Assembly: GCA_043228905.1 (NCBI GenBank)
Contig: JBHGNT010000007.1
Coordinates: forward strand, 5,580,001-5,644,000
Direction: 5' to 3'
Length of the DNA stretch: 64,000 nt
From: Azolla caroliniana
Lineage: Eukaryota > Plantae > Polypodiophyta
In this document: piece after piece, positions 1,982-29,668 of the stretch
Layout: each line of letters begins with the position of its first letter
Numbering within the stretch: the first letter of the stretch is position 1
Position numbers and translations under genes: made by a program
The notes under the pieces: generated by a model
What the model was told of the DNA's origin: nothing
What the model saw: only the letters and a program-made list of their open reading frames with translations
Database searches by the model: none

Positions 1982-1985
1982 CATT

Positions 1986-2003
1986 TGGTGAACCCGACGT
2001 GAA
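1986..2003 (+). other. Primer-binding site complementary to tRNA-Trp 3' end
   Basis: TGGTGAACCCGACGTGAA is the reverse complement of the plant tRNA-Trp(CCA) 3' end; same 18-mer at 4922, 13435, 18457, 20447 and 58057. Confidence 0.85.
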
Positions 2004-2019
2004 GACGGGTGGCAAGGGG

Positions 2020-4130: not shown

Positions 4131-4917
4131 TGTATTTCGTACACTACGTGAAAAAGTAAAAATAATTTAACCGATTTAATTACATATAAATAAATAAAAT
4201 AAGAATATCAAAATATTTATCACATGCATAGGGCAGGATTCGAAGCCTATACCTCCACATAGCCAAACCTCAACTTTACCATTATGCTACCTTATCTTTA
4301 GTATTTTATAAATAGATTTAATAACTATAAGTTCTTTATTTGCGCCTACCTTTATTAAAAGGTAAATCATGTATTTTTAGAGTGCGTGAATATTTTATAG
4401 AAAAACGCAAGCAACTAAAAAGTGACTCATGCACATCTAGCGTGCATGAGCACTATATTTAGCAAATAAAAGCAAGGATTAGAAAAGCATCACATGCACA
4501 TTTAGTGTGCATGAACATATTAGAAAAAAAAAAAAAACATGTAGCTATGCTTAGTCTCTCCCATCACTACATAAGGATGGGGAGCACAATGTAATAGGTG
4601 TGTGAAATATTTGGAAATTGGATATATTTCCGAAAACACCAACCGATTAATATAATCGTGGGATTCACGAAAATAATATAATCTATACTTGTGGGATTCA
4701 CAAGTTTCTTATATCTTTCTTTCAATCTAAATACATATTCTTATCTAAATATTGATTAATTGAATACAATACACTCGTGGGATTCACAAAATTTCTATCT
4801 CTCTTTCTAATAATCTATTCATTACTAGCCTCATCTCATATTCTTCTTTCTCCTAGTCCAAAACCTCAGTGGTTCCCACCCGACTCACGCAACGATCCGG
4901 AGCCGAAAGGCACGACA
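4124..4917 (+). repeat. B LTR2 (internal, degenerate 5' terminus)
   Basis: Near-identical to LTR3; ends CACGACA then PBS; start reads TTTGTAG instead of TGTCGTAG. Confidence 0.88.
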
Positions 4918-5553
4918 CAGTTGGTGAACCCGACGTGAAGACGGGTGGCAAGGAGATGGAGAATCAACAAGAGGCGATGAACATGATGATGATGATGGTT
5001 GAGCGGATGCAACAAGAACAACGCGCGATGACGGAGATGAAGGCGGCAGTAGAGCGGCTTGTGCGACGAAATGGGGAATTCAACGGAAATGATGTGTCAC
5101 GCTATCTACGTGACTACAAAGGGGAGATGATGCGATGTGGGATACCGGAAGGATTGCAAGTGATATCCTTCAGTCGGGTAGCCACGGATGAGTTACAAGA
5201 AAGAATCTACAAGATACGGCAACAAAATCCAACATGGGGGTCCTTTGAAGAAGCTTTACGAGAGGCATATGACTACGAGAGATCGAAGGGACGAGATCGA
5301 TGCGAGTTTGATGAATGGGTGGCATCGGAGAAGACCCACCGAAGTGCAACACAAGCATTCCTAGAGTTCGAGCATCGTCTTGCTTGACTCTCGGAGCGGG
5401 AACAACGATTGGTGGGAGAGGATAAAGTCCTAATGTTCGTAAAATCGATCGATCGAAAAGAAAGGATGGACATCGGGATCGAACTCGAAGACGATGAAGG
5501 TACGAATGGTCTTACCGAAGATTGGGCCGAAGTCCAAAGGGTATGCCGGAGAC

Positions 5554-5686
5554 TGTCAGGAACTCTATTAAGGCAGAGAAGGAATTGGTACTAAAAGAAG
5601 GATTAGTACTATTGTTGGGGAATAGTACTAAGACAGAGAAGGATTAGTACTATGAGAGGTATCGAACTTTGAGAGAAGGAATGAGT

Positions 5687-5728
<42 letters not shown>

Positions 5729-6018
5729 TGATGCGAAAGATATATGTATTATATGACGGAAGATATACAACAGTAGTTAGAAGGCTTAAGACTGGCGTTG
5801 AACCGATTTGGTTCGAACTAATGCCTTGCGCCTCCTTTTATAGTGTCTTCAGGAATACTCCTGAAGTTTCTAGAATGTTCCAGAGAAATCTGGAATATAC
5901 ATCAATTTCCCAATAAAACCTAAATGAAAATAATATCCTTCAAATTACAATTCATATCCTAATGGTAAAGTCTCGACCCGTGTAACAAAAGGTTATGGGT
6001 TCGAGTCTAGTTATGACA
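5554..6018 (-). repeat. C 3' LTR
   Basis: TGTCA...TGACA; copy of 10852-11310. Confidence 0.96.
5847..5896 (-). promoter_or_regulatory. Heat-shock-element array upstream of the LTR TATA box
   Basis: Ten trimers in exact 5-bp phase TTC-GAA-cTC-GAA-TTC-GAA-TTC-GAg-aTC-GAA; TATAAAA on minus strand at ~5836-5842. Confidence 0.75.
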
Positions 6019-9000
6019 CTATCCCCCCTTTAAAACGACGAGTTTCACGAGTCGTTTTGGATTGAGGACCCGGTTTCTCGGGATATCGTCGATGGAAGTC
6101 TTCTAGAAGAGCACGAGCATTGGTCACATTCTCGATCGGTTCCCAAGTACGCTCGCTGGGACTATATCCTAGCCAATCGACTAGATAGTAGAGCTTGTTG
6201 CGAACAATCTTGGAATCGAGGATGGCAGCGACCTCATACTCAGGTCCATCTTCGAGCTCGATAGGAGGTGGAGGTTGTATAGTACGTCCTGGGATAGTGC
6301 TCTCGTGATAGGGTTCGAGGAGAGAACTATGAAACACCGGATGTATCCGAAGTTGCGGAGGTAGCTCGAGACGAAAAGCGACATCATTAATCTTCCCGAT
6401 AATACGGAAAGGACCTAATCGCCGATAATCCAACTTCTCACATGGGCGAGTAGTCTTGATGTGTCGTCGTAGCAGCCACACCCGATCTCCAATGTTAAAA
6501 CTGGATGGAAGTCGATGACGATCTGCGTAGTCCTTGTGTGATTGTTGAGCTTGCTGGAGTTGAGTAGATAAATCCGCTTGTATCTTGCGTAACCGCTCCA
6601 AACGATCCTCCGCGCAAGGATTTGTGGACACTTCTGGGGTTTCAAGGACACACCACCGGGGATGATATCCCGTATAAGCGTAGAATGGCGTGACTTTAGT
6701 TGATGCGTGGATAGCGTTATTATAGGCAAATTCGGCGAACTGAAGAATATCTGCCCAGTCATTCTGATGATAGTTGAGAAAGCACCGCAGATACTGCTCC
6801 AGTGTTTGATTTGTTCGTTCGGCTTGACCGTCGGTTTGTGGGTGGTAGCCGGAGGAGAGGTTACAAGTGACCTTCAGCATTTTAAAAAGGTGCTTCCAGA
6901 ATTTTGACACAAACTGGGGTCCACGATCGCTGATGATATTATCAGGGAGTCCATGATGCCGACATACTTCCCGCATGACAATTTCGGCGGTGTCTTCACT
7001 AGATATTTCTTTAGTACATGGTAAGAAATGAGCCATCTTCGTATATCGATCCACCACTGTGAGAATCGCACTGAATCCCTTAGAGACTGGAAGATCTGTA
7101 ATGAAGTCAAGAGCAATGGATTGCCATGGCTTGCTTGGAATTGGTAATGGTTCTAATAAACCATATGGATGATGTCTTGGCATTTTCGCTCTGCAGCATG
7201 TATCGCAAGTCCGAACAAAATCTTCGACAAATTGTCGCATACGGGGCCACCAGAATGATCGTTGTACTAAATCTAATGTTTTAGTACTACCAAAATGTCC
7301 TGCTGTATATGTGTCATGGCAGTTTTGTACTACTCGAAGGCGGCAAGAACCATTAGGAACATACAAAAGTTCTTTAAAGAAGAGTAATCCATCACAGTAT
7401 TTGAATTGCCGATAATCCGTACCTGGTGATTGTGATTGTGAACATGACGCTCGAGAGGGGTCAATTTGTGCTAGTATAGCTTGGGCGAAAGCGTCAGTCT
7501 TCAAGTCCTCACGTATAGTATTGGTAATGTCGGAATCCACGGGCATGTCAAAGACCTGTGCTGCTTGCAGTCGTGCTGGACCCAAGATTACTTGCTTCTG
7601 GTTATCGAAAGCTGGCTCACCGGGACGTGGTGTTAGATACGAACGCCGTGATAATGCATCTGCCTTCCCTTGGTGTTTCCCCGGACGATATGTAATTTTG
7701 AAGTCGAAGCGTGTGAGGAAGTGGGCCCACCGAGCTTGACGTCGATTCAGTACACGAGCATCTTGAAAGTGGGCAAGGTTCTTGTGGTCACTGAATACAG
7801 TGACCTGATGAGGAGATCCCTCCAGGAAATGCCTCCATTGCATAAAAGAATCAACTATTGCTAATAGCTCTTTATCATGAATTTCGTAGTTGATTTCGGC
7901 GGCGTCAAACTTACGGGAGTGGAAAGCCACAGGATGTAGCTTCTCGTCGTTACCCTGTTGTGACAGAATGCTCCCCAATGCGAAATCCGATGCGTCAGCT
8001 TCGATAATGAATGGTTTTTCCGGATCCACATGACCTAAAATTGGAGCTGATGTAAACGCCTTCTTAAGACTCTCGAAAGCCATGTCCGTCTCTTTAGACC
8101 AAATGAATGATTGTCCCTTTCTGGTGAGCTGTGTGAGAGGCAGCACAATTTTTGAGTAATTTTGTATGAACTTCCGGTAGAAATTTGCAAAGCCTAGGAA
8201 GCATTGCACATCCCGCACCGAACGCGGAGTGTGCCATTCTATCACCGTTTTGACCTTGGCTGGGTCCATAGATATGCCTTCTGAGGAGATGACATAGCCG
8301 AGAAACTCCACTTGGTTGCACCCGAAACTACATTTCTCTAACTTTGCATACAGACCATGTTCTCGAAGTCGTTTTAGTACTAATAGTACATGAGAATCAT
8401 GTTCTTCTTGGGTCTTTGAATAAACCAGTAGATCATCCAAATAGATGATCAAAAAATCATCCAAGAGATCTCGAAATATATCATTCGCCATGTGCTGGAA
8501 GACTGCCGGCGCATTAGTAAGTCCAAACGGCATGACCGTATACTCGAAGTGCCCATATCTGGTGCGAAACGCGGTCTTCCATTCATCTCCTGGTCGGATC
8601 CGTACGAGGTTATAGGCTCCTCGTAAGTCGATCTTCGTGAAGAACCTGGCACCGTTGATCCGTTCTAAAAGACTTGAGATAAGGGGAAGAGCATACCTAT
8701 TTCTTACTGTGACCTTATTCAAGCCACGGTAATCTACAACGAGTCGAAGCGAGCCATCTTTTTTCTTGACGAAGAAAATGGGTGCGCCGGCTGGAGATTT
8801 CGAATGCCGAATGAAACCGTTCTCCAAATTCTCCTCTATATAGGCTCGAAGGACTTCTAGCTCGGTTGGTGACAAATTGTAGATCGGCCCCCATGGCGGC
8901 TCTTTTCCCGGTTGTAAGTCGATGGCGCAGTCGTACGGCCGATGATGAGGAAGTGTGTTGGCTTGTACTTTATCGAACACATCAGCATACTGACGATACT

Positions 9001-9568
9001 TCTCGGGAAGTTGAACGGTGGACTCCTCTTTGGTGGTGCTGGAGGGTTGTACTGATATTGCAAAGAGAAACATTTCCTCCTTGCGCCCTTCCTCACGCAA
9101 CTGACGTAGCGAAATGGTTGCAACCTTCTGGGTAGATCCTTGGGTTTGTCGCAACCGGATTTCCCTTGTCCTCCAATCTATGTCTGGGTCATGTAACTCG
9201 AACCATGGTAATCCTAAAACTATGGGATGTTCTGGAATACTAATAATATTAAATGATACTACACATGTTAAGTTATTTAGGACAATATTAACGGGTTCCG
9301 ACTCTTCTATGATATTACCAGAAGCAATGGGACGACCATCAATGACTACTACTGAGGCTGGACATGGGAGCTTTCTGAGAGATATCTGATGAGCTCGGGC
9401 AAAATTCCTATCCATGAAGCAAGAATTAGCTCCGGAATCTAGAAGGGCTAAGGTATGTACTGGAGGGGTACTTTTAGTACTAACTGCTACTTGGGCTACG
9501 AACACATCACTAACTTGCTTAGAGGGAATGGAACCACTAATGGGCTGCACAGATCTAGGGCTGTCCAA
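6011..9568 (-). CDS. pol: Pol polyprotein PR-RT-RH-INT-chromodomain
   Basis: 1185 aa; LLDSGA, YLDD, EADASD, integrase core, GPF and chromodomain EYEVAAILD...YLVDWLGY...TWEP; stop lies inside the 3' LTR. Confidence 0.97.
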   Translation of the reverse strand: MDSPRSVQPISGSIPSKQVSDVFVAQVAVSTKSTPPVHTLALLDSGANSCFMDRNFARAHQISLRKLPCPASVVVIDGRPIASGNIIEESEPVNIVLNNLTCVVSFNIISIPEHPIVLGLPWFELHDPDIDWRTREIRLRQTQGSTQKVATISLRQLREEGRKEEMFLFAISVQPSSTTKEESTVQLPEKYRQYADVFDKVQANTLPHHRPYDCAIDLQPGKEPPWGPIYNLSPTELEVLRAYIEENLENGFIRHSKSPAGAPIFFVKKKDGSLRLVVDYRGLNKVTVRNRYALPLISSLLERINGARFFTKIDLRGAYNLVRIRPGDEWKTAFRTRYGHFEYTVMPFGLTNAPAVFQHMANDIFRDLLDDFLIIYLDDLLVYSKTQEEHDSHVLLVLKRLREHGLYAKLEKCSFGCNQVEFLGYVISSEGISMDPAKVKTVIEWHTPRSVRDVQCFLGFANFYRKFIQNYSKIVLPLTQLTRKGQSFIWSKETDMAFESLKKAFTSAPILGHVDPEKPFIIEADASDFALGSILSQQGNDEKLHPVAFHSRKFDAAEINYEIHDKELLAIVDSFMQWRHFLEGSPHQVTVFSDHKNLAHFQDARVLNRRQARWAHFLTRFDFKITYRPGKHQGKADALSRRSYLTPRPGEPAFDNQKQVILGPARLQAAQVFDMPVDSDITNTIREDLKTDAFAQAILAQIDPSRASCSQSQSPGTDYRQFKYCDGLLFFKELLYVPNGSCRLRVVQNCHDTYTAGHFGSTKTLDLVQRSFWWPRMRQFVEDFVRTCDTCCRAKMPRHHPYGLLEPLPIPSKPWQSIALDFITDLPVSKGFSAILTVVDRYTKMAHFLPCTKEISSEDTAEIVMREVCRHHGLPDNIISDRGPQFVSKFWKHLFKMLKVTCNLSSGYHPQTDGQAERTNQTLEQYLRCFLNYHQNDWADILQFAEFAYNNAIHASTKVTPFYAYTGYHPRWCVLETPEVSTNPCAEDRLERLRKIQADLSTQLQQAQQSHKDYADRHRLPSSFNIGDRVWLLRRHIKTTRPCEKLDYRRLGPFRIIGKINDVAFRLELPPQLRIHPVFHSSLLEPYHESTIPGRTIQPPPPIELEDGPEYEVAAILDSKIVRNKLYYLVDWLGYSPSERTWEPIENVTNARALLEDFHRRYPEKPGPQSKTTRETRRFKGGIVS

Positions 9569-9594
9569 CCAAACGGCTCCTATTTTGGCTGGAC

Positions 9595-10764
9595 TTAGTC
9601 GTTTAACTCTTCTTCTAATTGGCTAAGGACATCAAATTTGTTTGCGAGATTCGGACTATTAGTACTATTAGGACTATTATGACTATGAGGATTATCAGAG
9701 ATTCCTACTGAAATAGACTCGGGTTTAGTATAGTCAGAACTAACAATGACTTGGTTTACCTGCCTTCTTGGTCTATGGGGACAGTTTATCGCGATATGCC
9801 CTGGTCCACCGCAATAAAGGCATAATCGGTTTGTTCGGCGTCGTTGCTTTTCCTCCTCCGATAGCGGCCCACGACGACGTGTAGTGTCAATTTCCATTGG
9901 AGTTGGAGTACTTACTGGAGGCGCATTATGTGACTCCCTTTGAAAAGGTTTCGCTACCACTGAGGCATAGGTAGGCTCGGATCTTGCCCTCGGCATCTGA
10001 AATTGTCGTTCCGAACGTCGCTCGAAGAGGCGGTTGTCACATCTGACCGCTCGACTGATTGCTTCTGTTAATGATTTTGGCTCTTCAGGGAAAGTCAAGA
10101 GTAAATCCTTGACATCGTTGCGTAGACCATAGCGGAACTGCTCCATCAATGCTTGATCATCCCAGGGGATATCGGCGGCGAGTAGGCGGAAATCTGCAGC
10201 ATATGCGGAGGCTGGACGGTCACCTTGGCGTAATCGCCGGATTTTGTTGATTGTAGTCCTTATGCTGTCAGTATCTCCAAAACATGCTTTAAACTCACTT
10301 ATGAATTCTTCAAAATTATTTAGTACTGGAGATTCCTTTTCTAGTAGCGGAGCGAACCATGCTAATGCTGAGCCATTTAACAACGTGCCTACTAAACCCA
10401 CTCGTGATGCATCGGTGGGATATCGGGACGGATGCATTTGAATAACTAACCGTACCTGGTTAAGAAACCCTCTAAACTGCGATCGCGTTCCATCGAACTT
10501 CGTGGGAAGGCCAATCTTGGGTTCTTTATGAATCCCTTGTGCTCCGTGCCCTTGTTGTTGCATTGCTACGATGGTTGCTTCGAGTTGTTGCACGCGTAAC
10601 GCAAGTTCCCCATGCTGTTGTTGCGTTTGCTGCTTTTCTAAGGAAATTTGCTGAAGATCCCCCAACAAGCGTTGATTTTCTTGTTCCAAAGCATGAAACT
10701 TCTCTTTCAAGCATTGAAATTCCGAGAAAACGGATTGATACTCTTCAGCGCTAACGGTGGCCAT
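9595..10764 (-). CDS. gag: Gag (coiled coil, capsid, CCHC knuckle)
   Basis: 389 aa; PTKFDG, LRQG, PTPMEID, CLYCGGPGHIAINC. Confidence 0.96.
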   Translation of the reverse strand: MATVSAEEYQSVFSEFQCLKEKFHALEQENQRLLGDLQQISLEKQQTQQQHGELALRVQQLEATIVAMQQQGHGAQGIHKEPKIGLPTKFDGTRSQFRGFLNQVRLVIQMHPSRYPTDASRVGLVGTLLNGSALAWFAPLLEKESPVLNNFEEFISEFKACFGDTDSIRTTINKIRRLRQGDRPASAYAADFRLLAADIPWDDQALMEQFRYGLRNDVKDLLLTFPEEPKSLTEAISRAVRCDNRLFERRSERQFQMPRARSEPTYASVVAKPFQRESHNAPPVSTPTPMEIDTTRRRGPLSEEEKQRRRTNRLCLYCGGPGHIAINCPHRPRRQVNQVIVSSDYTKPESISVGISDNPHSHNSPNSTNSPNLANKFDVLSQLEEELND

Positions 10765-10851
10765 GGGATGAAGGAAAAGGGAAATAAGAGACTAGTAGGA
10801 AAGGAGGGAGACAGAAGGAAGAGGGAGACTAGTAGTCAAATCGGTTCAAAC

Positions 10852-10984
10852 TGTCAGGAACTCTATTAAGGCAGAGAAGGAATTGGTACTAAAAGAAGGA
10901 TTAGTACTATTGTTGGGGAATAGTACTAAGACAGAGAAGGATTAGTACTATGAGAGGTATCGAACTTTGAGAGAAGGAATGAGT

Positions 10985-11020
<36 letters not shown>

Positions 11021-11310
11021 TGATGCGAAAGATATATGTATTATATGACGGAAGATATACAACAGTAGTTAGAAGGCTTAAGACTGGCGTTGAACCGATT
11101 TGGTTCGAACTAATGCCTTGCGCCTCCTTTTATAGTGTCTTCAGGAATACTCCTGAAGTTTCTAGAATGTTCCAGAGAAATCTGGAATATACATCAATTT
11201 CCCAATAAAACCTAAATGAAAATAATATCCTTCAAATTACAATTCATATCCTAATGGTAAAGTCTCGACCCGTGTAACAAAAGGTTATGGGTTCGAGTCT
11301 AGTTATGACA
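10852..11310 (-). repeat. C 5' LTR
   Basis: Copy of 5554-6018, adjacent to the PBS-position sequence 10837-10849. Confidence 0.96.
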
Positions 11311-12754
11311 GAGACATGATGAGAGGAAGATGAGAATCTTGTCAACGACATGGCCGATGAAGGATGGTCGATTGAAGACAAATGATGGAGCCGATATGAA
11401 GGCCGAAATACAACATGATGGTGCGACGGAAGAGGGTGTCAAACAAGCTACCCTATTGTCTTGCGAAAGAACAATGACGAAGGATAAGGCCGATAACCCA
11501 AGTGTAGAAGAAGATTTCAGAATACAAGTGTCCGAAACATCGGGTGAAAAAGGGGTAAGCATAATTGATGCAGTGAAAGAGAGCAAGGAGGACTTGATTG
11601 AGGAGGTCACCACGAAAGATGACATCGAATCGAAGGTGGCTATGGACGAATCAACGACGGATGGCCATATCGAGACTTCCCCACCACTGATTCTAGAGAC
11701 TCCGGCGGTTGCGTTCGAAAGGCAACGTGAGACCGAAGAGACGGAAGGTGGCGGAGAGAAATCAAAGGTTGAAGCTGATGCGTATGACGGAGAGATAGCC
11801 GAGAATATGGCTATGGGTGAAACAACGGAGGATGATAATACCGAGGATTCCTACCCACTAATTCTAGAGACTTCGGCGGTTGTGTCCGAGAACCAACGTG
11901 AGACCGGAGAGACGGGAGGTGGCAGCAAGAAAGGTAAAGTCGGAAGCCGGTTCGGATGGAAGGTGATCCGGACGGGATTCCGATCCGAAAGAAAGCCGAA
12001 CCGGGTAAAAGAGGATTCGACCGAAAGTCGACCCAAAAGAAAGCCGAACCGAAAGGAAGAAAATTCAGCCGAAAGACGACACAAACGAAAGCCGAACCGG
12101 GCAAATGAGGATTCAGCCGAAAGACGACCCGAAAGAAAGCCAACCCGAAAAGGGGTCGACTCGGTCAAAACCGATCGACCGAGTCTGACTTGGCCGAACG
12201 CGAATATGGATGGAAGCAGACCTAGCCGAAAGCCAATCGGACGAGACGGATCCGGAAAGAAGCTAATCCGACTCAATCGGAGGTTGGACCGGTCGAGGCT
12301 GGTGAAAACGAGGAAAAGAAAGCCAACCGAAACCGAAACCGATAGATCGAAACCGGGCCGGAAGGAGACCGACTCAATCGAAACCGAACAACCGATTCCG
12401 ATTCGGCCGAATACGAATCCGATCAGAAGCTGATCAAACCGAAAGTCGATCGGACGAGAGCGATCCGGAAAAAAGTCAAGGTTGATGAAGACAAGAAAGA
12501 GGCCAGTAAAAGACACTACCACGAATGACAAGGGCCAAGAATATGACGAGAGAGAACAAAGAATATGGTGGATCGGATGGCGACAATGGTTCGGGTGGAA
12601 AGAATTGGTCTACTCAAAATGGAGAGACAAAGTTGACATAGCGGGACAAATGGAGGATGAAGGGGAGACAACGAGCATCGGCAACTTCGGCACATACCGG
12701 AGGATGTGCGGGTTCGGAGGGGGCGAGTGTCGTAGTGTATTTCGTACACTACGT

Positions 12755-15700
12755 TGTCGTGAAGATTTTCGTCCATAGGCGGAAAACCGAGCGAAGCAAG
12801 CAAACCCGCGATGTGCAACGTTGCACATCAACATGTTGTATTTCTATTTATCGATAGTGATAAGTATGGTGCTAGAAATGCACCTTAGGATTTGTAAAGT
12901 GTAAAGGTGATGTGCTTTTGCGCGCACATCCACGTGAGAGAGAGAGAGATAGGTACGTGGTAGTTCGTGTAGAGGTGGGAGTTAAGACCCATCCTTCCCA
13001 CCTCCCCTAAAATCAAGGGAAATCTCCCCATTGATTGAAAGGGGATATTTTGTAGCACCTTTATGTAACGGTCTTCCCTCCTTGTGCTATAAAGGGAGAG
13101 GAAGAGCACCATTGTGGAGGTTGCCTATTTTGAGTGCGAAAGGTATACCACATAGGACGAGCGTTAGGTTTAGGGTTTCTTTTCTTCTTCGTCGGATTAG
13201 GGTTTCGGGTTTATCATAGTCGTTTGGTGCGGCCTACGCGGCCGCCATTTTGTAATCGGTTTTCGGTTCTAATATATCTTGTTGAGCATTTGGCCTCCAT
13301 CTTCCTCTTGTTCATTCTTTCTCTTCTTGTGCTAAGCTCCATTCCGAAGTCCTATTCCTTCTCCCCTTTTCCTTAGTCCAAGACCCCCGTGGTTCCGCCC
13401 TTCTCCACGCACGCGCGTAACAACGCGACATCTTTGGTGAACCCGACGTGAAGGGCGGCAAGGGAGAAAGAGATGGAAGAAGGCTTCGACTTCGAGGAGA
13501 TGATGACAAAGATCTTGATGGACGCCGGACGGAAGAGGGCGAGGCGAGAGTTCTTTCGTCGAGCGGCGGCCGCATCAAAGTACGAGGAGGTCAAGGAGCT
13601 CCAAGAAGCTCACGAATCGTGGGAGTCCTTTGAAGGGGCTCTAATGGAGGCATACGGGTGCGCGGAATCGGAGGTAAGAGGTCGGCGAGAGTTCGATCGG
13701 TGGGTGGCGTCGGCGAGGCGCCATCGGAGTGCAATGGAGGCATTCCGAGAGTTCGAGCGTCGTTTCTCTCAACTCTCGGAGTGGGAACGAAGATCGGTGG
13801 GGGCGGACAAAGTCCTCCTATTTTTGAAGACGGTCCATCATGAGGAGAGGATGGACATCATGTTCGAGCTTCAAGACGATTATGGAGCGCATGGTCTCAC
13901 CGAGGAGCTGCCCGAAGTGGAATGGGTGTGTCGGCAACATGAGGCGAGGCGGTCGGCCACAACACGGCCCGCGAGCGGGGGAGAAGAGAGAGCGACGACC
14001 GACTACGCCATGCCGCCGGACGAGAGCTCATCGCGAACCGGTTTGGAGGGGCCCGACCTACAAGCGCTAATACGGGAGGCGTGCGGGCTCGTAATGGCGA
14101 AAATCGAAGCCGAAGAATGGCTTATTGCGGGGTCGGGCCTGAGCGGATCGGAGGACGCGGAGGAAGGAGCTTCCTCACACATGGAGGACGGGGCCTATGC
14201 GGAGGCCGAAAGAGAATGGTACATCGGTACCACGGGAGAGGGTGCGGAGCGAGCCGCCCTCTCGACATGGGGGAAAAGAACGACCGAGGATGAGGTCGGG
14301 GACGGTGAGGCGGCGATCGCCGATTCGAGTGGACATGGCGGATTCGGGACATGGTGGCCCGAATCATCGAGTACGGAGGAGACAAGCGGCGGTACCGCAA
14401 CCTTCCACGCACCGGTTCAAGAGACCCCGGCGGCCGGCCCGAGTGCCCACGTGAGACCGAGGGAAAAGAACGGTGGCGGCGACAAGGCGGGCAACCGAGA
14501 CAACGGTAAGGAGACCGCGGAAGAGGCGGCGGCAAGCATAACCGATGCTTGCATATACGGAGGCGGGGTAGCCACGGACAACGACGTCCGAGCGGAGGTG
14601 GCTACGGACATTACATCGACGAGCGGCGGTCCCGCGCCCTTACACGCGTCATTCCTAGAGATCACGGCGGCCGGCCCGAGTGCCCGCGTAAGACCTATGG
14701 TGAAAGGCGGTGGCGGTGGCAAGGCGGGCGACCACGACGTCGACACGAGAGAAGGTGCGGAGCAAGCGACCGTCTCATCTCGGGGAAAAAGAACGGCCAT
14801 GGACGAGGCCGATATCTACGGAGCGATGGACGCCACTTCGAGAGTGGGCGGAAGTTTCGGGACGCGGTTGCCCGAAACGTTCTACGAGGATTTCGCGAGC
14901 ATACTCGAGGCTTGCGAAATGGAGGAGGAAGACGAAACGAGCGATGGTGTCGCGACCTTCCACACACTGGCCCTAGAGGCTTCGGCGGTCGGCCCGAGTG
15001 CCGGCACGAGACCTAGAACGACGGGCGGTGGCGGCGGCAAGGCGGGCCACCGAAACGACGACGACATGGGAGAGGGTGCGGAGCGAGCAACCCTCTCGTC
15101 TTGCGGCGAATGGACGGCCAAGGATGAGGCCGGTGACTACGAAGCGGAGAGCGCCACTTCGAAAGTGGGCGGAAGATTCGGGGCACGGCGGCCCAAAACA
15201 TCGAGCGGAGAGGAGGCGAGCGGTGGTGCCGCGACCTTCCACACACCGGCCCTAGAGGCTTCGGCGGTCGGCCCGAGAGCCGGCGAGAGGCCTGGAGTGA
15301 CGGACGGTGGCGGCGGCGAGGCGGGCAAACGAGATGACGCGGAGAACGGCGAAGAAGAGGTGGTGGCAAGCATACTAGAGGCTTGCGGAATCGGAGATGG
15401 GGGAGCCACGAATAACGACGTCCGAACGAAAGCGGCTACGGAGACAACAAACGGCGGTGCCGGGTCCTTACCCACACCAATCCTAGAGGCTCCAATGGCC
15501 GGCCCGAGTGCCGGCATGAGGCTTAGCGCGACGGGAGGTGACGGCGGCAAGGCGGGCAACGGAAACGAGAAGGAAGATTGGAGCGGACGGAGGCAAGACC
15601 CCTTGACACCGGGGCCGGAGACTACGACGGTTGCACTCGGAAGCCAACATAAGACCGTAGAGAAGGGCGGTGGCCGTGAGGAGGCGTGGCCCGGAGAGAG

Positions 15701-17681
15701 CACATGCGAAGAAGGGGATACGGGGCCCGGAATGGGCGTATACGGAGAGTCCGACGGAGAGGATCGGAGCGGTATCGAGGAGCGAGTCGGGAACCAACCC
15801 AACCGGAAGGCGAGCCGGTCGGTAATCCGACCCGACCGGGAGGCGAAGCGGCACGATTGGAGGCCGAGGTGTACGAGTCGCAACACACGGTGGGAGCCAG
15901 TGAGCGCGAGAAGGAGGCCAAGCGGGCGCAAGGACAAGGACTCGGTGGGAGACCGAGAGCGGAAGGAACCCTCCACACCTATGCTTAACACTTCGGCGGT
16001 TGCGGATCAACGGAAGACCGAGGAGATGGCGGGTGGCGGCGAGGAGTTGGAGACCGATGCGGGGGACGGGTCTACGGTGGAAGCGCGACACGAGACGCAT
16101 GCAATACGGCCGGTGGAGGGCCAAGAGACGAGCACGCATACGGCGAACGGGCGACAACGAGTGACCGACGACGACGGTCGGGTCAAGCCTTCGAGAGGCA
16201 AGCGCGGGATGAAAGAGGGCGCGGGTCGAGACGAAGCGATGATGAGAGCCACGAAGGGCCCCGACACGGAGGTCGGGAAAGGAAGGTACCTTTCCAAAGG
16301 GGTACGCGAAAAGGAGCGGGATACGAAACGTGCAATACGGCCGCATGAGGGCCAAGCAACGAGTACGGGAATGATGGTATGCTCTACGGCGAAAGAGCAC
16401 GGAAGGCGAAGGGAAGGCGGAAGATGCGTGATGGGGGCGTCGAAGGACCGAAGCACGAGCACGCATTCGGGGGAGAGCATCGACATACGGGGAAAGCCTA
16501 CGGAAGGCAATCGCGGAGCGGAGAGAGTCGGCACGCCGAGGTGTGCGGCACGGGAAAGGCGGAATCCGGCGTGCAGCCGGAGAGATCGGGAGAGCATCCG
16601 GAGGCTATACGAGGCGGACAAAAGAAGAGCAGCCGGGTCGGCAACGGCGTTCGGGAGGACCGATCGGGGAAGAAAGCGCGGGCATCGGAAGCGGCGGTCC
16701 GGATGTAGACGGTGGTTCGAGGAATCACGGTGGACGTGGCGGATCGGGTGGAGGCAACGACTCGGCGAACGTCGTCAAGTGTGGCGGATCGGATGGAGCC
16801 GACGGTTCGAGACCATTCGGCGGAGATGGTGGGCCAGAAGGCGACGGTGGTTCGTGTGGACGGGGTGGACTTGCTCGAAGTGGAAGACGAAGCCGGGCAA
16901 GCCCACGAGGTTGTCAAGGGCTCGGTTGGCCGCCTTGGCCGAAAATCTCGCGTTTTGTTCCCCTTTTGGCACATACCGGTGGATGTGCGGTTAGGTGGGG
17001 GCGGATGTCGTGAAGATTTTCGTCCATAGGCGGAAAACCGAGCGAAGCAAGCAAACCCGCGATGTGCAACGTTGCACATCAACATGTTGTATTTCTATTT
17101 ATCGATAGTGATAAGTATGGTGCTAGAAATGCACCTTAGGATTTGTAAAGTGTAAAGGTGATGTGCTTTTGCGCGCACATCCACGTGAGAGAGAGAGAGA
17201 TAGGTACGTGGTAGTTCGTGTAGAGGTGGGAGTTAAGACCCATCCTTCCCACCTCCCCTAAAATCAAGGGAAATCTCCCCATTGATTGAAAGGGGATATT
17301 TTGTAGCACCTTTATGTAACGGTCTTCCCTCCTTGTGCTATAAAGGGAGAGGAAGAGCACCATTGTGGAGGTTGCCTATTTTGAGTGCGAAAGGTATACC
17401 ACATAGGACGAGCGTTAGGTTTAGGGTTTCTTTTCTTCTTCGTCGGATTAGGGTTTCGGGTTTATCATAGTCGTTTGGTGCGGCCTACGCGGCCGCCATT
17501 TTGTAATCGGTTTTCGGTTCTAATATATCTTGTTGAGCATTTGGCCTCCATCTTCCTCTTGTTCATTCTTTCTCTTCTTGTGCTAAGCTCCATTCCGAAG
17601 TCCTATTCCTTCTCCCCTTTTCCTTAGTCCAAGACCCCCGTGGTTCCGCCCTTCTCCACGCACGCGCGTAACAACGCGACA
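12755..17681 (+). mobile_element. Element D: young gag-only non-autonomous LTR retrotransposon
   Basis: 676-bp LTRs (12755-13430, 17006-17681) with no difference seen by eye; TSD ACGT; tRNA-Trp PBS 13435-13452; one ORF and no pol motifs. Confidence 0.93.
13473..16994 (+). CDS. 1173-aa protein: Gag capsid-like N-terminus, acidic G/A-rich repeats, R-rich region, W/R-rich C-terminus
   Basis: Uninterrupted ORF filling PBS to PPT; WESFEGAL...AFREFERRF...DKVLLFLK...GLTEE aligns by eye with Gag of E and B. Confidence 0.8.
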   Translation: MEEGFDFEEMMTKILMDAGRKRARREFFRRAAAASKYEEVKELQEAHESWESFEGALMEAYGCAESEVRGRREFDRWVASARRHRSAMEAFREFERRFSQLSEWERRSVGADKVLLFLKTVHHEERMDIMFELQDDYGAHGLTEELPEVEWVCRQHEARRSATTRPASGGEERATTDYAMPPDESSSRTGLEGPDLQALIREACGLVMAKIEAEEWLIAGSGLSGSEDAEEGASSHMEDGAYAEAEREWYIGTTGEGAERAALSTWGKRTTEDEVGDGEAAIADSSGHGGFGTWWPESSSTEETSGGTATFHAPVQETPAAGPSAHVRPREKNGGGDKAGNRDNGKETAEEAAASITDACIYGGGVATDNDVRAEVATDITSTSGGPAPLHASFLEITAAGPSARVRPMVKGGGGGKAGDHDVDTREGAEQATVSSRGKRTAMDEADIYGAMDATSRVGGSFGTRLPETFYEDFASILEACEMEEEDETSDGVATFHTLALEASAVGPSAGTRPRTTGGGGGKAGHRNDDDMGEGAERATLSSCGEWTAKDEAGDYEAESATSKVGGRFGARRPKTSSGEEASGGAATFHTPALEASAVGPRAGERPGVTDGGGGEAGKRDDAENGEEEVVASILEACGIGDGGATNNDVRTKAATETTNGGAGSLPTPILEAPMAGPSAGMRLSATGGDGGKAGNGNEKEDWSGRRQDPLTPGPETTTVALGSQHKTVEKGGGREEAWPGESTCEEGDTGPGMGVYGESDGEDRSGIEERVGNQPNRKASRSVIRPDREAKRHDWRPRCTSRNTRWEPVSARRRPSGRKDKDSVGDRERKEPSTPMLNTSAVADQRKTEEMAGGGEELETDAGDGSTVEARHETHAIRPVEGQETSTHTANGRQRVTDDDGRVKPSRGKRGMKEGAGRDEAMMRATKGPDTEVGKGRYLSKGVREKERDTKRAIRPHEGQATSTGMMVCSTAKEHGRRREGGRCVMGASKDRSTSTHSGESIDIRGKPTEGNRGAERVGTPRCAARERRNPACSRRDRESIRRLYEADKRRAAGSATAFGRTDRGRKRGHRKRRSGCRRWFEESRWTWRIGWRQRLGERRQVWRIGWSRRFETIRRRWWARRRRWFVWTGWTCSKWKTKPGKPTRLSRARLAALAENLAFCSPFGTYRWMCG

Positions 17682-18471
17682 ACGTGAAAAAGTAAAAATA
17701 ATATAACCGATTTAATTACATATAAATAAATAAAATAAGAATATCAAAATATTTATCACATGCATAGGGCAAGATTCAAACCCTATACCTCCACGTAGCC
17801 AAACCTCAACTTTACCATTATGCTACCTTATCTTTACTATTTTATAAATAATAAATTTAATAACTATAAGTGCTTTATTTGCACCTACCTTTATTAAAAG
17901 GTAAATCATGCATTTTTAGAGTGTGTGAATATTTTATAGAAAAAACGCAAGCAACTAAAAAGTGATTCATGCACATCTAGCGTGCATGAGCACTATATTT
18001 AGCAAATAAAAGCAAGGATTAGAAAAGCATCACATGCACATTTAGTGTGCATGAACATATTAGAAAAAAAAGCATGTAGCTATGCTTAGTCTCTCCCATC
18101 ACTACATAAGGATGGGGAGCACAATGTAATAGGTGTGTGAAATATTTGGAAATTGGATATATTTCCTAAAACACCAACCGATTAATATAATCGTGGGATT
18201 CACGAAAATAATATAATCTATACTTGTGGGATTCACAAGTTTCTTATATCTTTCTTTCAATCTAAATACATATTCTTGTCTAAATATTGATTAATCGAAT
18301 ACAATACACTCGTGGGATTCACGAAATTTCTATCTCTCTTTCTAATAATCTATTCATTACTAGCCTCATCTCATATTCTTCTTTCTCCTAGTCCAAAACC
18401 TCAGTGGTTCCCACCCGACTCACGCAACGATCCGGAGCCGAAAGGCACGACACATTTGGTGAACCCGACGT

Positions 18472-18757
18472 GAAAACACCAACCGATTAATATAATCGTG
18501 GGATTCACGAAAATAATATAATCTATACTTGTGGGATTCACAAGTTTCTTATATCTTTCTTTCAATCTAAATACATATTTTTATCTAAATATTGATTAAT
18601 CGAATACAATACACTCGTGGGATTCACGAAATTTCTATCTCTCTTTCTAAATAATCTATTCATTACTAGCCTCATCTCATATTCTTCTTTCTCCTATCCA
18701 AAACCTCAGTGGTTCCCACCCAACTCACGCAACGATCCGGCGCCAAAAGGCACGACA
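18472..18757 (+). repeat. Partial extra B LTR (3' ~286 bp) fused directly to the PBS
   Basis: Repeats 18167-18452 and supplies the integrated right end next to the TSD. Confidence 0.88.
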
Positions 18758-19650: not shown

Positions 19651-22574
19651 TGTCGTGAAGAAAACCGTCCATAAGCGGAATCGGCGCACCAAGGCGTGGG
19701 AACCGGTTCTTCACGCGCGCACGCTCCAAGTTGTACATAGAAGCGAATTAGGAGGATAATCGGCAGGAACGGGCCCTAACACAAGTGGAGACAAAGACCG
19801 CGCGAACAGTCTTTTCGGTCGCGCGCGTGAGCTGAGGAACTGTACGGGTCGGCGGCGTAACTACGCGGATGCGTGAAGAACGGAGCGGATCCCTGTTTGA
19901 AAGGGACAGGGAATAAAGCTGACATAACGGCCTGCTCGTGGGCCTATATAAGGAGCAGGAAAGAGCTGTTGCAGGATCTCGCGCAGAGAGGACGAAGTGC
20001 TGTCGGACCGTTTCTGGACGCTTCTCTCTCTGTTTCCTTCCTTCTTGAGCTCCATAGCTTTTCTGTGCAGGGTTCCGGGGAGGCTCGCGCTGTTTCGAGG
20101 AACGCCCGAGTGCTTCCGGCAGCACCTCCGACCTGCTACCCCTTTGTGCGTCGAAGCGAACAAGCATCGACATCTGTTCGCCGGCCTGTTCGGTTGTAAC
20201 CAACTTGTGCCCCATCGAGGGTTGTAGTCGTGTTAGCCATTTTTCTTAATATACATATTTAGTCATTCACATATGTCTGTGTCGGTGTCTGTTCGCGTTC
20301 TCCGTGCTGAAGGGCCGTGTCCTTGTGTATCCCCGGTCCTGCGTAGCCGGTTCTCTCTCTTTCTCCTCCCTCGCTTGCTCTTAGGTTCGAGACCCCCGCG
20401 GTCCCGCCTCGTTTCCACACGCACTTGCATAATATCTCGACATCTTTGGTGAACCCGACGTGAAGGAGGTGGCAGAAGAGCAGAAGATGAGGGGGTCGGA
20501 TCTTGCAGAGGCCATGGCTTCGGCCGTGGATCGGATTGTAAACGCGCGCGAGGGCACCGGTGCCCTCGACAGAGCTATTGAGGCGGTCGTCGGCACGATC
20601 GGCCGGTTCGATGGGAAGGATGCCACGAAGTATTTGGCGTCCTACGGTGCAGAGATGCTGATGCGGGACATTCCGGAAGAAAGGCGTCTTGCCGGATTTC
20701 CCCGAGTGGCGATGCCGAGCATCCATGCGGAGGTGCTCGAGGTGCGGGCGGAGAGCCGTACCTGGGAGGAGTTCGAAGGTCGGCTCCTAGAGAAATACGG
20801 GCTGGACGACGCGCTCCGGCTTTCGAAGCGAAGGTTCATGGTATGGGTGGAGTCCCCGGGGAAGGGAAGAAACGCGTCGGCACTCCTCCGGGAGTTCGAG
20901 GAAAACTTTGCGCGCCTTTCGGCGCTCGACCGAACCATCCTGGACACGAGCCGGGTCTTGCTGTTTGTCAAGTCGGTCGACGAGCGGGATCGGGAGCAAG
21001 TGGGCCTCTTGCTGGAAACCGAAGACGGGCTCACTACTGACTGGGCGGCTGTCAAGAAAGTCTGTGGCCGTTTCGACAAACGGCGAGAGTGGGCGGATAA
21101 CGGGGCAACCGGGTTGGGCTCGGTCGCAGCAAGGAAGCTCGAACCAGCGCCACAGGTGCGAAAGGAAGAGACCCGAGAGTGGTTGGAAACCGGTTCGGCT
21201 TCGACCGGCGTAGTCAGAGGCTCAACCGGAGGAGCGGCGCTGGAGGAATTGACGAGGGCGATAAAGGACCTCCAAATCGCGCAAGCCCGAAGGGAAGGTG
21301 GCGAACCGGCTCGTGACCGACGGCCGGCGACAGGAAACAGGTGCATGTGGTGCGATGAAGTCGACCACATTCGGAAGGACTGCGGCGACTTCGCGGAGGC
21401 GCTGAGGAACAGGGTGGTGTACCTGTGGGAAGGACGGGTGCATGCCAGCGACACCCGAAGGGCCCTGAGCCGAAACGACGGGCGAGGTGGTATGAAAAGG
21501 TTGATGGAAGAGGCGGCGGCCCGACACGCGGAAACCGTCCACTACTCGGCGTCGGCCGGCATTCGAGTCGGGGGCGGCGAGGCCCGAAGGGAAAGCAAAG
21601 CCGGATTCTGGCCGACGATGCTGGAAGGCCTTGCCGGTGCAAGGCTTAAAAGGGAGGAATCGGACCTTGCGGAGAAACGAGTACGGGAGATGACCGGGTG
21701 GAGCGACCCGGTCGAGGAAAAGACGGGCTTCGTGGAAGCCGCTTGCCAGAACTACGAGGCTCTGGTAGAAGAGAAGCGGGTGGGGAAACCCGGGACGACC
21801 GGGCCCTCACAACGATACGAGACTCGGTCCGGGCCACGACGGGACGAAGCCGGCGGGGCCGGTACGCAAGATAAACCCCAGAAGGGCAGGTACCGTCTGG
21901 GGACGGAGATAGAAAGGACCACGGACTTACGAAAGGTCCTGGAGGAACGGATCCTCGACAGCAAGGTGGAGCTGTCGTTACGAGAGGTGCTGGGAATCGC
22001 CAAGAAGGAGTTCCACGACTCCATCGTGGACTTGGTGAAACGGAAGAGGCTGTCAACGGAGACAGAACCGGAAAGACCGGTGGAAGTGCGGACGACGCAC
22101 CTAGACGACATGGCGCTGGGAGACGAGTGGGCGGAAAGCCACTATTCGAGACCACACTGGGCCCGAGCGACCACGGAAACCCCGGTGAAGATCGGCGATG
22201 TCCAGGAACCGGTGATAGCTTTGGTGGACCACGGATCGGAGATCAATTTGATATCCATGGACTTCTATAAGAAGGGCAAATGGCTGATCAACACCAAGCA
22301 CGGGTGGAAAATAAGGGCAGCAACGCGCGCCACCGAGGAACTGCACGGGGCCTGTCCGAATGTGCGAGTCAAGATCGGCGACGTCGAGATTGACCAGCAC
22401 TTCTTCGTGCAGGAGACGTCTTCGCATCCGGTCATACTGGGAGAGCCGTACATCACGGCGGCGCGAATGGAGACCAAGGTGCTGGACAATGGTTCGGCCT
22501 ACGCGAGGGTCAAAAGCCAAGACGGGCGCCATTCGGTCCAGTTTCTGACGGTACGGCCGAACCACGAACGTAAC

Positions 22575-25500
22575 TGTTACGGGCATGACCATATAATATC
22601 CCGTGGTGAGAATTGTCGTAGTATTCTATACACGTGGATAAGTGTGAGGGTTAAACAAAGAGTCTAAAGAAGGGGAGGATTACTTTTAATCCTCGGGATT
22701 GAGACAACCCATGAGGCCAAGTGTGAACATGGCTGGGGGCCTTGAGAATTACTATAAATAAGAGGCCTAGCTACCCTCATTTGGGGCATGCATTGACTAC
22801 GTCGAGACTCTGTCCGTGAGTGGAACGACTCTTGTAGCAAGCGCGCTATTGTCCAGGTACGACTCGACGCCAAGGCGGTGGTATGGGACGCCGATCGAGG
22901 CTCGAGTCCGTCTCGATCCCTTCGCTCGGGGGTGGTCGGGTGGATCGGCACCCTTCTTTCTCTCTTTTCTCTCTATTCTTTCTAGATCTATCATTGATAT
23001 ATCCTTATTTTATGCTTACTTTAGTACCTAATCTCTAATATTTGGTATCGGAGCCTATGTACTAACGTTTCTTTTGGTTTTCTTTTTGTCTTCGCGTGGG
23101 ATGGCGATTGATCGTTGTGCGGTCGCCTTCATGCAGACAAGGATTAGCGAAAGAACTTCGGTAAATTTTCCTTAATTTTTTATCTAATTTTTTCTTCTCC
23201 CTTCTATACATGTGTATACTTAATATGTAGTTTTTTTTTCATATATTCAATGATGTTGACGTGGTATTTAATTGGTTATCTTAAACGTTTACATATGTCC
23301 ACGAGGTCAATACCTCGTTTGACATATAAATCATATGTGATGAGTGTCGTATGCGTACGAGGTTACTACCTCAATTGCGTATTACGTTCACGAACATATG
23401 TTACGTTCGCGTACGAGGTCAATACCTCGATTCGTTCGAAATGATATGCGTTGGATTTACTATGCGTAAGAGGTCAATACCTCAATTGCGAATTACGCTT
23501 AACCTTATTTTCGGATGTTTCGTGTGCGTAGAGGTATATGCCTCGATTACGTATCCCGAATACATCATTGTTGGCTATATAAAAAAAAACGATTCATTTA
23601 GTATACGCATATGTGGTCACTTATATACGTCTCTGATCGTATATATGTGATATATTGACATATGTGTATATTTTAGATTACGTGATTCATATCAAATGTT
23701 TTCCTAATTGGGGAGAGGATTTTGGTGGCCGTCCTCACATTTTTGTGAGAATGGCGTTGTCACCATCCCTTTTATCAACAATTTTTATTGTTGAAATTCC
23801 CGTTGGTCACTTTGATCTTTCGTTACGTAACGAACCTCGTATAGCCAAAATGATGTTGAATACGTCGGGCTTGATCCACATCAAGTAGGGTCGCTCTAAT
23901 GACACACGTATCCAACATCTCCCCTCGTTACATGGATACAATGCCACCATGAGCTCATTCTTACGATCGCCATTCGTAATGACGTGACCATGTGATGGGC
24001 CACATGAGCCTACGAAGACACAAGGGCTCATTCGGCTTGACCATTAGGTTACACTTTGGCATATGCCATTGTACTTACGAGGCTTGAGGGTAGGTAGCGT
24101 ACAACCATAGTGGGTAATAAATGAGGGAGAAATAAGGCCACTTGACCTATATGTTTCTTTTAAAAAAACATATAGGGGCAAATGCCTCGCATATCTCGAA
24201 TACGCCTCAAACATTAAACATTCAAGACGCGCAATCTACTTGGTTGGCTCAAGTGTTTAATGTATTTGTCCTCGAGGTCTCGAGTTCAAATATGACCAAC
24301 ACCATACAACATCGTTGATACATATGACTATAATACATGTTTAGACTTTAGGTCTAAGTGCACTTCGGGGTCCTCGTAATAGGACTTAAAGAGCCGAAAC
24401 CACATATGTGGGCACAGAAACATAGTTATTGTTAACATTTTTTTCGTGTATAAACTATTCATGACGCGAACATACATGGTTGAGCCTCGGGGAGCCGCCA
24501 TGAAAAAAATCGATATAGAGATCAGGGAAAGGCATTCATTTGTCACCCCCATGGTTTTTAAAACACCTCTGTGTTACCATAGTAACCTGATCTTGAACCT
24601 CATCTCATACGTCTAGAGGGGTATTGACGTGAGATCATGATATCGATTAATGTTTGCCCATGATATGTTTACACCACGACAAGATGTTATGACTATTTGT
24701 CTGACCTTATCTTATTTCTTTGCCAGAAATAATCATTCAATGGCTCAGAATAACGACCCGATGCCCTCCGCTCAAGCGGAAAGACCTCAAGGAAATCCTC
24801 CTGGGACAATGTCCATTGAGGCGTATATTTTACAAGTACAACATTTCCTTAGTTCAACCGCGCAGCAGTTGACCGAATTTCGGCAATCTCAAAGTGCTCT
24901 CGAGGCACGAGTCATTAGTCTCCAAAATGAGATTAATAGACCTGATGAGCGTCAGGGTGAACCATCATTTGTCGTAAAGCCATTTACGGGAGATAAAAAG
25001 GAAAGAACCGAAGAAGCAATCTGCACGTGGCTGGGCCGATGGGAGTCTCATTTTGAGCTCTATCCCACGCCAGATAGTACGAAGATTGCATATGTCGGCC
25101 GAGAACTAGGGGGTAAGGCCGCCGCTTGGTGGCGTGGGCTCCGAACTTTGGGGAGATTGCCCGAGACCTGGACAGACTTTGTCACAGTTTTCAAGGGTCA
25201 ATTTCTACAACCTCCCTCTCGAACCGAGGCAGCACAAGCTTTAATGAACCTCTCTAGCAGGAAGTTTTCCTTGCTAGAAGACTATGTCCACCATGCTAGA
25301 ACCCAAATCCAAAAATCGGGTCTAGAAGGGGACAATTGGTTAATAGCTTGTTTTGTCAATGGCATCCCCAATTCGGACTATCACTGGATAGTGCACGATA
25401 AGGATCCAAAATCCTTCGAAGAGGCCGTTGAGATAGTTCTTCGCTATCAACGCACTTCGAAGAAGAACCATAACAAACCCAACGAAGCGCCCGGGACTAA

Positions 25501-29625: not shown

Positions 29626-29668
29626 GTAACCGCGACTCCCTCGGTTCCGAAAACCGAGAGGATTTTTA

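What the first reader, a model, noticed from the sequence alone, without database searches (positions are those of the whole stretch)
12755..17681. Gag-only satellite lineage (B, D) with an intact 1173-aa capsid-fusion protein and its probable helper (E/H)
Seen: D has apparently identical LTRs and one open frame from PBS to PPT with no pol and no CCHC knuckle. After a capsid-like region come about five repeats of type ATFHTPALEASAVGPSAGxRPxxxGGGGGKAG, then a basic region. B has very different LTRs but a homologous tail (GVKQATLLSC vs GAERATLSSC; PLILETSAV...GGG; FGTYRxMCG end). B, D, E and H share the PBS and TGTCGT/CGACA-type termini; 4-bp TSDs are seen for B, D and E. Established: gag-only TR-GAG elements exist, and truncated Gag (Ty1 p22) can restrict its own element. 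Inference: a long-lived satellite lineage whose protein co-assembles with, hijacks or restricts helper particles, not a simple deletion derivative.
Basis: partly seen in the sequence, partly recalled or inferred. Interest (0 to 1): 0.75.

Follow-up and report, generated by a model that had tools for sequence, protein, structure and literature searches.

The report
Satellite retrotransposon keeps frame, not protein
This is a young copy of an old, abundant family of plant jumping genes that lack their own enzymes and swap pieces with a complete relative; their long gene stays free of stop codons while most of its protein sequence drifts freely, likely because being translated end to end protects the RNA rather than because the protein does a job.

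Summary
D (12755-17681) is real: identical 676-bp LTRs, ACGT target duplication, tRNA-Trp primer site, one 1173-codon frame, no pol, no CCHC. It belongs to a pol-less clade, sister to the genome's autonomous Phygy-like elements, that holds 27 of 60 sampled primer sites. An integrated D/E chimera and E-type LTR ends in D copies point to the E family as helper. D is not intact: it lacks 44 capsid residues. Other multi-copy subfamilies lack either capsid half. The tail evolves at dN/dS about 1, and the basic end is frameshifted away in 20 of 42 open copies. FGTYRxMCG is the translation of a cis hairpin that E also carries. Yet stops and frameshifts are purged from inherited tail variants (0 stops against 7.4 expected; 15 in-frame indels, 0 shifts). 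Selection therefore keeps the frame open to the 3' end, not the sequence. The likely reason is escape from nonsense-mediated decay or related surveillance (inferred, untested). One older subfamily with a 2-kb untranslated end argues against an absolute need. TR-GAG-like; works like translation-dependent defective RNAs.

The parts
12751..12754 (.). Left TSD of D (ACGT, NCGN type)
12755..13430 (+). D 5' LTR, 676 bp; TATAAA at 13088; last 70 nt resemble autonomous U5 ends
13435..13451 (+). Primer binding site, tRNA-Trp type (tRNA identity recalled; matches the dominant Phygy PBS type in PMC6317226 supplement)
13473..16994 (+). Single open frame, 1173 aa, from PBS to PPT
13473..13945 (+). Capsid-derived part, lacking 44 residues of the N-terminal half (deletion junction near codon 25)
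14397..15560 (+). Five in-frame repeat units in an acidic, hydrophobic-poor tail; dN/dS between repeats 0.98 in the reference copy
16170..16994 (+). Basic, Trp-rich end; read in another frame in many sister copies
16969..16988 (+). Conserved 6-bp hairpin with compensatory stem changes and a CCGG loop; source of the FGTYRxMCG reading
16991..17005 (+). Polypurine tract, same as in E
17006..17681 (+). D 3' LTR
17682..17685 (.). Right TSD of D
4922..12727 (+). B interior, gag-only family of 667-672 codons; here broken by stops and by insertion C (about 5552-11310)
1210..18757 (+). B-family tandem (LTR-A-LTR-B-LTR-PBS-partial LTR) flanked by ACGG; D sits in its third LTR
19651..33982 (+). E: copy of the autonomous helper family (792-bp LTRs 98.7% alike; gag with CCHC at aa 286, protease, pol); interrupted by F (22575-29625)
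57426..64000 (+). H: older, broken autonomous relative of E

Best explanation
D is a young copy of an old pol-less satellite clade of Phygy-like LTR retrotransposons that recombines with, and is likely copied by, the autonomous E family; selection keeps its reading frame open to the 3' end while ignoring most of the encoded sequence, likely because full-length translation shields the RNA from nonsense-mediated decay or related surveillance until it is packaged. Shown: no pol; one clade; E/D recombinants; dN/dS about 1 in the tail; inherited stops and frameshifts purged except where the new frame also runs to the end; either capsid half lost in multi-copy subfamilies. Inferred: co-packaging in E particles; that the selective agent is RNA surveillance; that the capsid was useful in cis in older families and is now decaying in the D branch.
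For: Helper: L056 has two E-type LTRs 99.2% alike, a perfect CCGC TSD, about 830 bp of D-family gag (95-100 of 100 nt per window) and E pol, with one crossover at the shared PBS. Seven D-family loci carry E-type U5 ends in tracts of at least two lengths. D and E are equally young (median LTR divergence 0.15%, n=55, and 0.31%, n=6; other autonomous 3.3%, n=6). Frame without sequence: D family against S2 over about 580 tail codons gives dN/dS 0.96-1.03 with differences spread evenly over codon positions, against 0.08-0.18 for E against H. Among 58 D copies, variants shared by two or more copies in codons 206-1150 are 202 non-synonymous, 86 synonymous, 0 stops against 7.4 expected (P 6e-4), and shared indels are 15 in frame, 0 shifting; the untranslated part of S1 shows 8 shifting, 2 in frame (P 4e-5). 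All 16 early stops lie on tips of the tree. Position matters, not length: in-frame deletions of 500-700 bp are inherited, B and S3 frames of about 670 and 770 codons also run to the PPT, and shared frameshifts occur only after codon 1150 (5 of 9 against 0 of 16, P 0.002), mostly where the alternative frames have no further stop. 42 of 58 copies are open to the hairpin in three different frames, 22/14/6; the S3 family crosses it in another frame. Capsid halves: S2 lacks the C-terminal half, S4 lacks the N-terminal half in the 19 of 20 fetched copies read in frame, with 40 close hits. Long 3' UTRs trigger decay in plants in a length-dependent way (PMC1693880, section 12).
Against: S1, the commonest gag-only type in the census, has a shared stop at codon 460-480 and about 2 kb of freely shifting sequence after it, yet spread. 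In S2 a 55-bp frameshift at codon 350 is shared by 3 of 27 copies and a stop at codon 40 by 4 of 27, scattered on the tree. Stop depletion is not significant in B (2 against 4.5) or the S1 tail (3 against 5.6). About half of the in-frame deletions remove whole repeat units and would be in frame anyway (chance in-frame rate 43-89% by microhomology length). Autonomous E RNA itself has a gag-protease stop far from its 3' end. B's tail shows weak amino-acid constraint (0.63, P 0.02) and a Trp-rich motif is kept across B, S3, S2 and D with synonymous changes. No test of RNA stability or translation was possible.
Confidence: 0.55

Rival explanations
1. Nascent-chain leash, as in mouse IAP 1-delta-1: the capsid part joins helper particles while the ribosome is still reading the long tail, dragging its own RNA in; the tail is a spacer.
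For: Capsid dN/dS 0.21-0.52 between gag-only families and 0.43-0.44 among shared variants in B and S1; no CCHC, so another route to cis capture is plausible; precedent stated in PMC6466679 (passage).
Against: Either capsid half is lost in multi-copy subfamilies; D-family capsid constraint is not significant (23:14, P 0.29); stops beyond codon 670 should be harmless under this model but are depleted.
Confidence: 0.22
2. One reading: the whole fusion protein, with its basic end as RNA binder, co-assembles with, hijacks or restricts helper particles (Ty1 p22-like for C-terminal-half variants).
For: Long frame with a basic Trp-rich end kept across deep families; trans-acting proteins allow cheating copies, so deletions do not rule out a function.
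Against: Tail dN/dS about 1; basic end replaced in 20 of 42 open copies; a trans-acting protein would not purge stops in cis as seen; E is young and abundant beside the satellites.
Confidence: 0.12
3. The open frame is a by-product: a T-poor strand, in-register repeats and a few recent master copies.
For: T is 9-12% in the tail; repeat-mediated deletions are in frame by default.
Against: The other two frames hold 35 and 25 stops in the reference copy; expected stop counts already allow for composition; frames stay in register across 23-33% divergence between families.
Confidence: 0.06

Closest known systems
TR-GAG elements (Chaparro 2015, PMC4350172; abstract start and passages seen)
   Same: LTRs, PBS, PPT, one frame with a capsid domain, no protease, RT, RNase H or integrase; multi-copy and recently active
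   Different: D is 4.9 kb (family about 5.7 kb) against under 4 kb; 4-bp NCGN TSD against 5 bp; no zinc knuckle; 85% of the frame is a neutral repeat tail; capsid halves dispensable
Phygy lineage of Ty3/gypsy (Neumann 2019, PMC6317226; passages and supplement rows seen)
   Same: 4-bp NCGN TSD, tRNA-Trp PBS; capsid relatives include Physcomitrium and Riccia proteins
   Different: Phygy is defined on pol domains of autonomous elements whose coding sequence fills the interior; no pol-less clade is mentioned in the passages seen
Mouse IAP 1-delta-1 (seen only as described in PMC6466679 and PMC10924933 passages; the original paper was not held)
   Same: Non-autonomous element whose translated in-frame fusion helps its own mobilisation in cis
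   Different: 1-delta-1 is a simple gag-pol deletion; here the tail is unrelated to pol and the clade is deeply diversified
[quoted passage not shown]
   Same: A long open frame is kept although the product seems not to matter
   Different: RNA virus replication, not retrotransposition; laboratory passage, not a natural genomic clade
Ty1 p22 (recalled, no call)
   Same: Variants keeping only the C-terminal capsid half
   Different: p22 comes from an internal transcript of the autonomous element; here complementary N-terminal-only variants also spread

Membership tests
TR-GAG | LTRs, PBS, PPT and TSD | tested here: met
TR-GAG | One ORF with Gag capsid similarity | tested here: met
   34-37% identity to autonomous gag; capsids top the fold search, though E>0.001
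TR-GAG | No protease, RT, RNase H, integrase | tested here: met
   no Pfam hit; 0 of 11 LTR-paired gag-only census elements hit protease or pol
TR-GAG | Length under 4 kb (screen allowed 1-6 kb) and 5-bp TSD | tested here: not met
   4927 bp, 4-bp TSD; so TR-GAG-like, not filed as a strict member
Phygy lineage | 4-bp NCGN TSD | tested here: met
   31 of 31 D-family copies with a perfect TSD in the first sample
Phygy lineage | tRNA-Trp PBS | tested here: inconclusive
   PBS read; its match to tRNA-Trp is recalled, no tRNA gene was compared
Phygy lineage | RT/RH/INT phylogeny with reference Phygy domains | not testable with these tools
   no reference set held; only the capsid tree and names of relatives
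Translation-dependent defective RNA (IAP 1-delta-1 / DI type) | Propagation falls when the frame is closed early, whatever the sequence | tested here: inconclusive
   population signature met in D and S2, not in S1; no direct assay
Restriction factor of the Ty1 p22 type | Protein binds helper Gag and lowers its transposition | not testable with these tools
   no binding or activity data

The most novel reading that the evidence does not exclude
A natural LTR-retrotransposon satellite clade, nearly half of its lineage in this genome, has turned gag into a multi-kilobase translation shield: a frame kept open to the polypurine tract purely to defeat RNA surveillance, with the capsid now being discarded half by half while the satellites renew their integrase-facing LTR ends from whichever helper is active.
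Probability: 0.45. Interest if true: 0.75.

Novelty: new variant of a known kind. Interest (0 to 1): 0.6.

Why it matters
It offers a tested alternative for why gag-only elements keep a frame, a question the TR-GAG paper left open in the passages seen. It warns that a long, stop-free, multi-copy ORF need not encode a useful protein. The family supplies dozens of near-identical natural copies with and without early stops, so the role of RNA surveillance in retrotransposon success can be tested by observation alone. The chimeras give rare genomic evidence of which autonomous family carries a satellite.

Tried and rejected
Tail from out-of-frame pol: rejected; tblastx and blastn against 14 autonomous interiors match only the last 42 nt plus short low-identity pieces. 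FGTYRxMCG as a protein motif: rejected. Hairpin stability: no better than shuffles (z -0.45 to 0.03); support is from compensatory changes only (142 of 149 matches paired, overlapping loci counted, outer pair fixed by the pattern). L102, L305, L306 as S4/pol recombinants: L305 and L306 are opposite-strand insertions and L102 has no matching LTR pair, so they are not used. Splicing: no GT-AG joint among few reads. No RNA holder was listed by the index. Laid polyA reads (111, 85, 431 of about 12 million records per run, one study) were mostly 90-95% alike, so from relatives, mostly on one strand along the element; E-type reads were on both strands; neither bears on mechanism. The Atlas gave no hit for the tail. 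A single-sequence fold of the whole D protein had not finished and is not used. No complex prediction was run: capsid pairs would pass by likeness. S2 rows for the C-terminal half and the whole capsid are misaligned and ignored. Earlier-finding look-ups were empty. Ten literature searches listed no report of a pol-less Phygy clade or of frame-only selection in an LTR satellite; most subscription papers are not held. PMC8892269 has no mention of NMD.

Full report
Observation. D spans 12755-17681 with 676-bp LTRs that are 100% identical, an ACGT duplication, a primer site at 13435 and one frame of 1173 codons ending in the polypurine tract; the other frames hold 31 and 18 stops. There is no Pfam hit and no CCHC. 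Five repeat units and a basic end are present. The N-terminal part is a capsid: 34-37% identical to autonomous gag, and a model of a full-length natural copy (mean pLDDT 77) has retroelement capsids as its best fold matches, although none reaches E 0.001. Corrections: D lacks 132 bp of the capsid N-terminal half that 38 of the 40 best hits carry; the ACGG duplication belongs to the whole A+B tandem; E's is imperfect; B, E and H are broken as they lie here.

Lineage. 31 of 31 perfect duplications in the first D sample are NCGN. Neumann 2019 lists 4-bp NCGN and tRNA-Trp for Phygy (PMC6317226 supplement row); that this primer site is Trp-type is recalled. Capsid relatives include Physcomitrium and Riccia proteins. 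The genome holds 2306 such primer sites. I fetched 60 of the first 61 listed, on one contig (one was already held). 27 of 60 have a satellite-type gag, and none of the 11 of these with paired LTRs has protease or pol; 27 of the other 33 have a protease within 3 kb. Thirteen satellite capsids from families D, B, S1, S3 and outside proteins form one clade (100/100), sister to the autonomous group. The tail matches 14 autonomous interiors only in its last 42 nt. So this is an old satellite clade, not a deletion of E.

Helper. Locus L056 has two E-type LTRs 99.2% alike, a perfect CCGC duplication, about 830 bp of D gag and then E pol. This is what template switching between co-packaged RNAs would give (inference); ectopic recombination is a less likely alternative. 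Seven D-family loci end their LTR in E-type sequence, in tracts of at least two lengths. D and E are equally young, other autonomous types older. The E family, not the window's interrupted copy and not H, is the likely helper.

What is selected. The D pattern finds 66 sites. I analysed 58 copies. Dropped: L046 (no second LTR in the stretch), L066 (no primer site found), L056 (chimera), L051 (identical to L044), a cut second copy in L065, L221, L228, L237 (script took another element), L224 (no 3' end) and L068 (trimmed to a stub, so print 59). B, S1, S2, S3, S4 and E samples are the best 20-30 hits of a search, not whole families. Between D and S2 the tail has dN/dS 0.96-1.03 with equal differences at the three codon positions; two other S2 copies give 0.8-1.5; internal repeats give 0.98; E against H gives 0.08-0.18. 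Yet shared variants in codons 206-1150 include 0 stops against 7.4 expected, and 15 in-frame indels with no shift; S1's untranslated part shows 8 shifts and 2 in-frame. All 16 early stops are on tips; two copies share one but lie far apart. Shared frameshifts appear only after codon 1150 (P 0.002), and 42 of 58 copies reach the hairpin in three frames, 22/14/6. The basic Trp-rich end is thus replaced in 20 of 42. FGTYRxMCG is the reading of a 6-bp hairpin with compensatory changes that E carries after its pol stop; family S3 crosses it in another frame.

Capsid. Between satellite families dN/dS is 0.21-0.52, against 0.13-0.24 over the whole capsid among autonomous types. Shared variants give 0.43 in B, 0.44 in S1, 0.68 in D (not distinguishable from neutral) and 0.14 in E. 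S2 lacks the C-terminal half, S4 the N-terminal half, both in frame and both multi-copy with NCGN duplications. The first 24 or so residues are kept in all variants shown, which may reflect an RNA signal beside the primer site.

Mechanism. The variable under selection looks like the distance from stop to 3' end, not frame length: large in-frame deletions are inherited and shorter families also run to the PPT. Long 3' UTRs trigger decay in plants by length (PMC1693880, section 12); translation state also steers transposon RNA into silencing (bioRxiv 2020.04.08.032953, abstract); NMD as a defence against retroelements is argued in PMC5031192 (passages). I therefore favour a translation shield (0.55) over a nascent-chain leash (0.22), a functional hijacking or restricting protein (0.12) and chance (0.06).

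Against. S1 spread with a stop at codon 460-480 and a 2-kb untranslated end. S2 has 3 of 27 copies sharing an early frameshift and 4 of 27 an early stop. B and S1 alone show no significant stop depletion. Many in-frame deletions are repeat-unit losses. B's tail is weakly constrained, and a Trp-rich motif persists across families. Expression evidence is thin: low numbers of polyA reads from 90-95% relatives, mostly on one strand, in one study.

Known kinds. It meets the structural TR-GAG features but not the size and TSD stated there (PMC4350172); PMC13570524 calls those limits blurred (passages). It works like IAP 1-delta-1 and coronavirus defective RNAs as described in PMC6466679 and PMC8255065 (passages); the original papers were not held. 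My ten searches listed no report of this clade or of frame-only selection in an LTR satellite, within a library lacking most subscription papers. Verdict: new variant of a known kind, interest 0.6.

Noticed in passing
L056 / L317 (G000:C2:24292522-24299746): Integrated chimera: E LTRs, D-family gag start, E pol with a 1.67-kb internal tandem duplication, perfect CCGC TSD.
   Followed up: yes
LTR 3' ends of L039, L041, L043, L065, L233, L236, L245; window 13360-13430: D copies carry E-type U5 ends; the usual D end resembles an older autonomous type (L118), suggesting serial capture of helper ends.
   Followed up: partly
window 16969-16988, 33154-33173, 12690-12709: Hairpin before the PPT with three compensatory stem types and a self-complementary CCGG in the loop; a dimerisation role is a guess.
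   Followed up: partly
window 1210-18757: B-family tandem with three LTRs, then a further primer site and a partial fourth LTR, all within one ACGG duplication; the middle LTR has an altered start.
   Followed up: partly
window 16728-16900; B 12560-12640: Trp-rich motif (WWIGW..FGW..SKW) kept in B, S3, P0009, S2 and D with some synonymous changes; GW pairs recall Argonaute-binding motifs (recalled). Unexplained.
   Followed up: partly
L190-L219 (family S1): Older gag-only family with a whole capsid, a shared stop at codon 460-480 and a long untranslated end.
   Followed up: partly
P0076, P0064: Capsid followed by an acidic tail without protease or CCHC; P0076 is named Physcomitrium patens. Possibly an independent gag-only type; DNA context not seen.
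   Followed up: no
window 14221-14337: Opposite-strand polyA reads join this stretch to unrelated sequence in all three runs; perhaps a host transcript that includes a fragment of a relative.
   Followed up: no
window 5552-11310, 22575-29625, 35773-41195: Nested unrelated elements: two chromodomain-bearing gypsy copies with near-identical LTRs and one copia copy; the window is a retrotransposon nest.
   Followed up: no
L094: A third, truncated gag type behind the same primer site, branching outside both groups.
   Followed up: partly
L044 and L051: Identical element on a small contig and a chromosome-scale contig; probably assembly redundancy.
   Followed up: no
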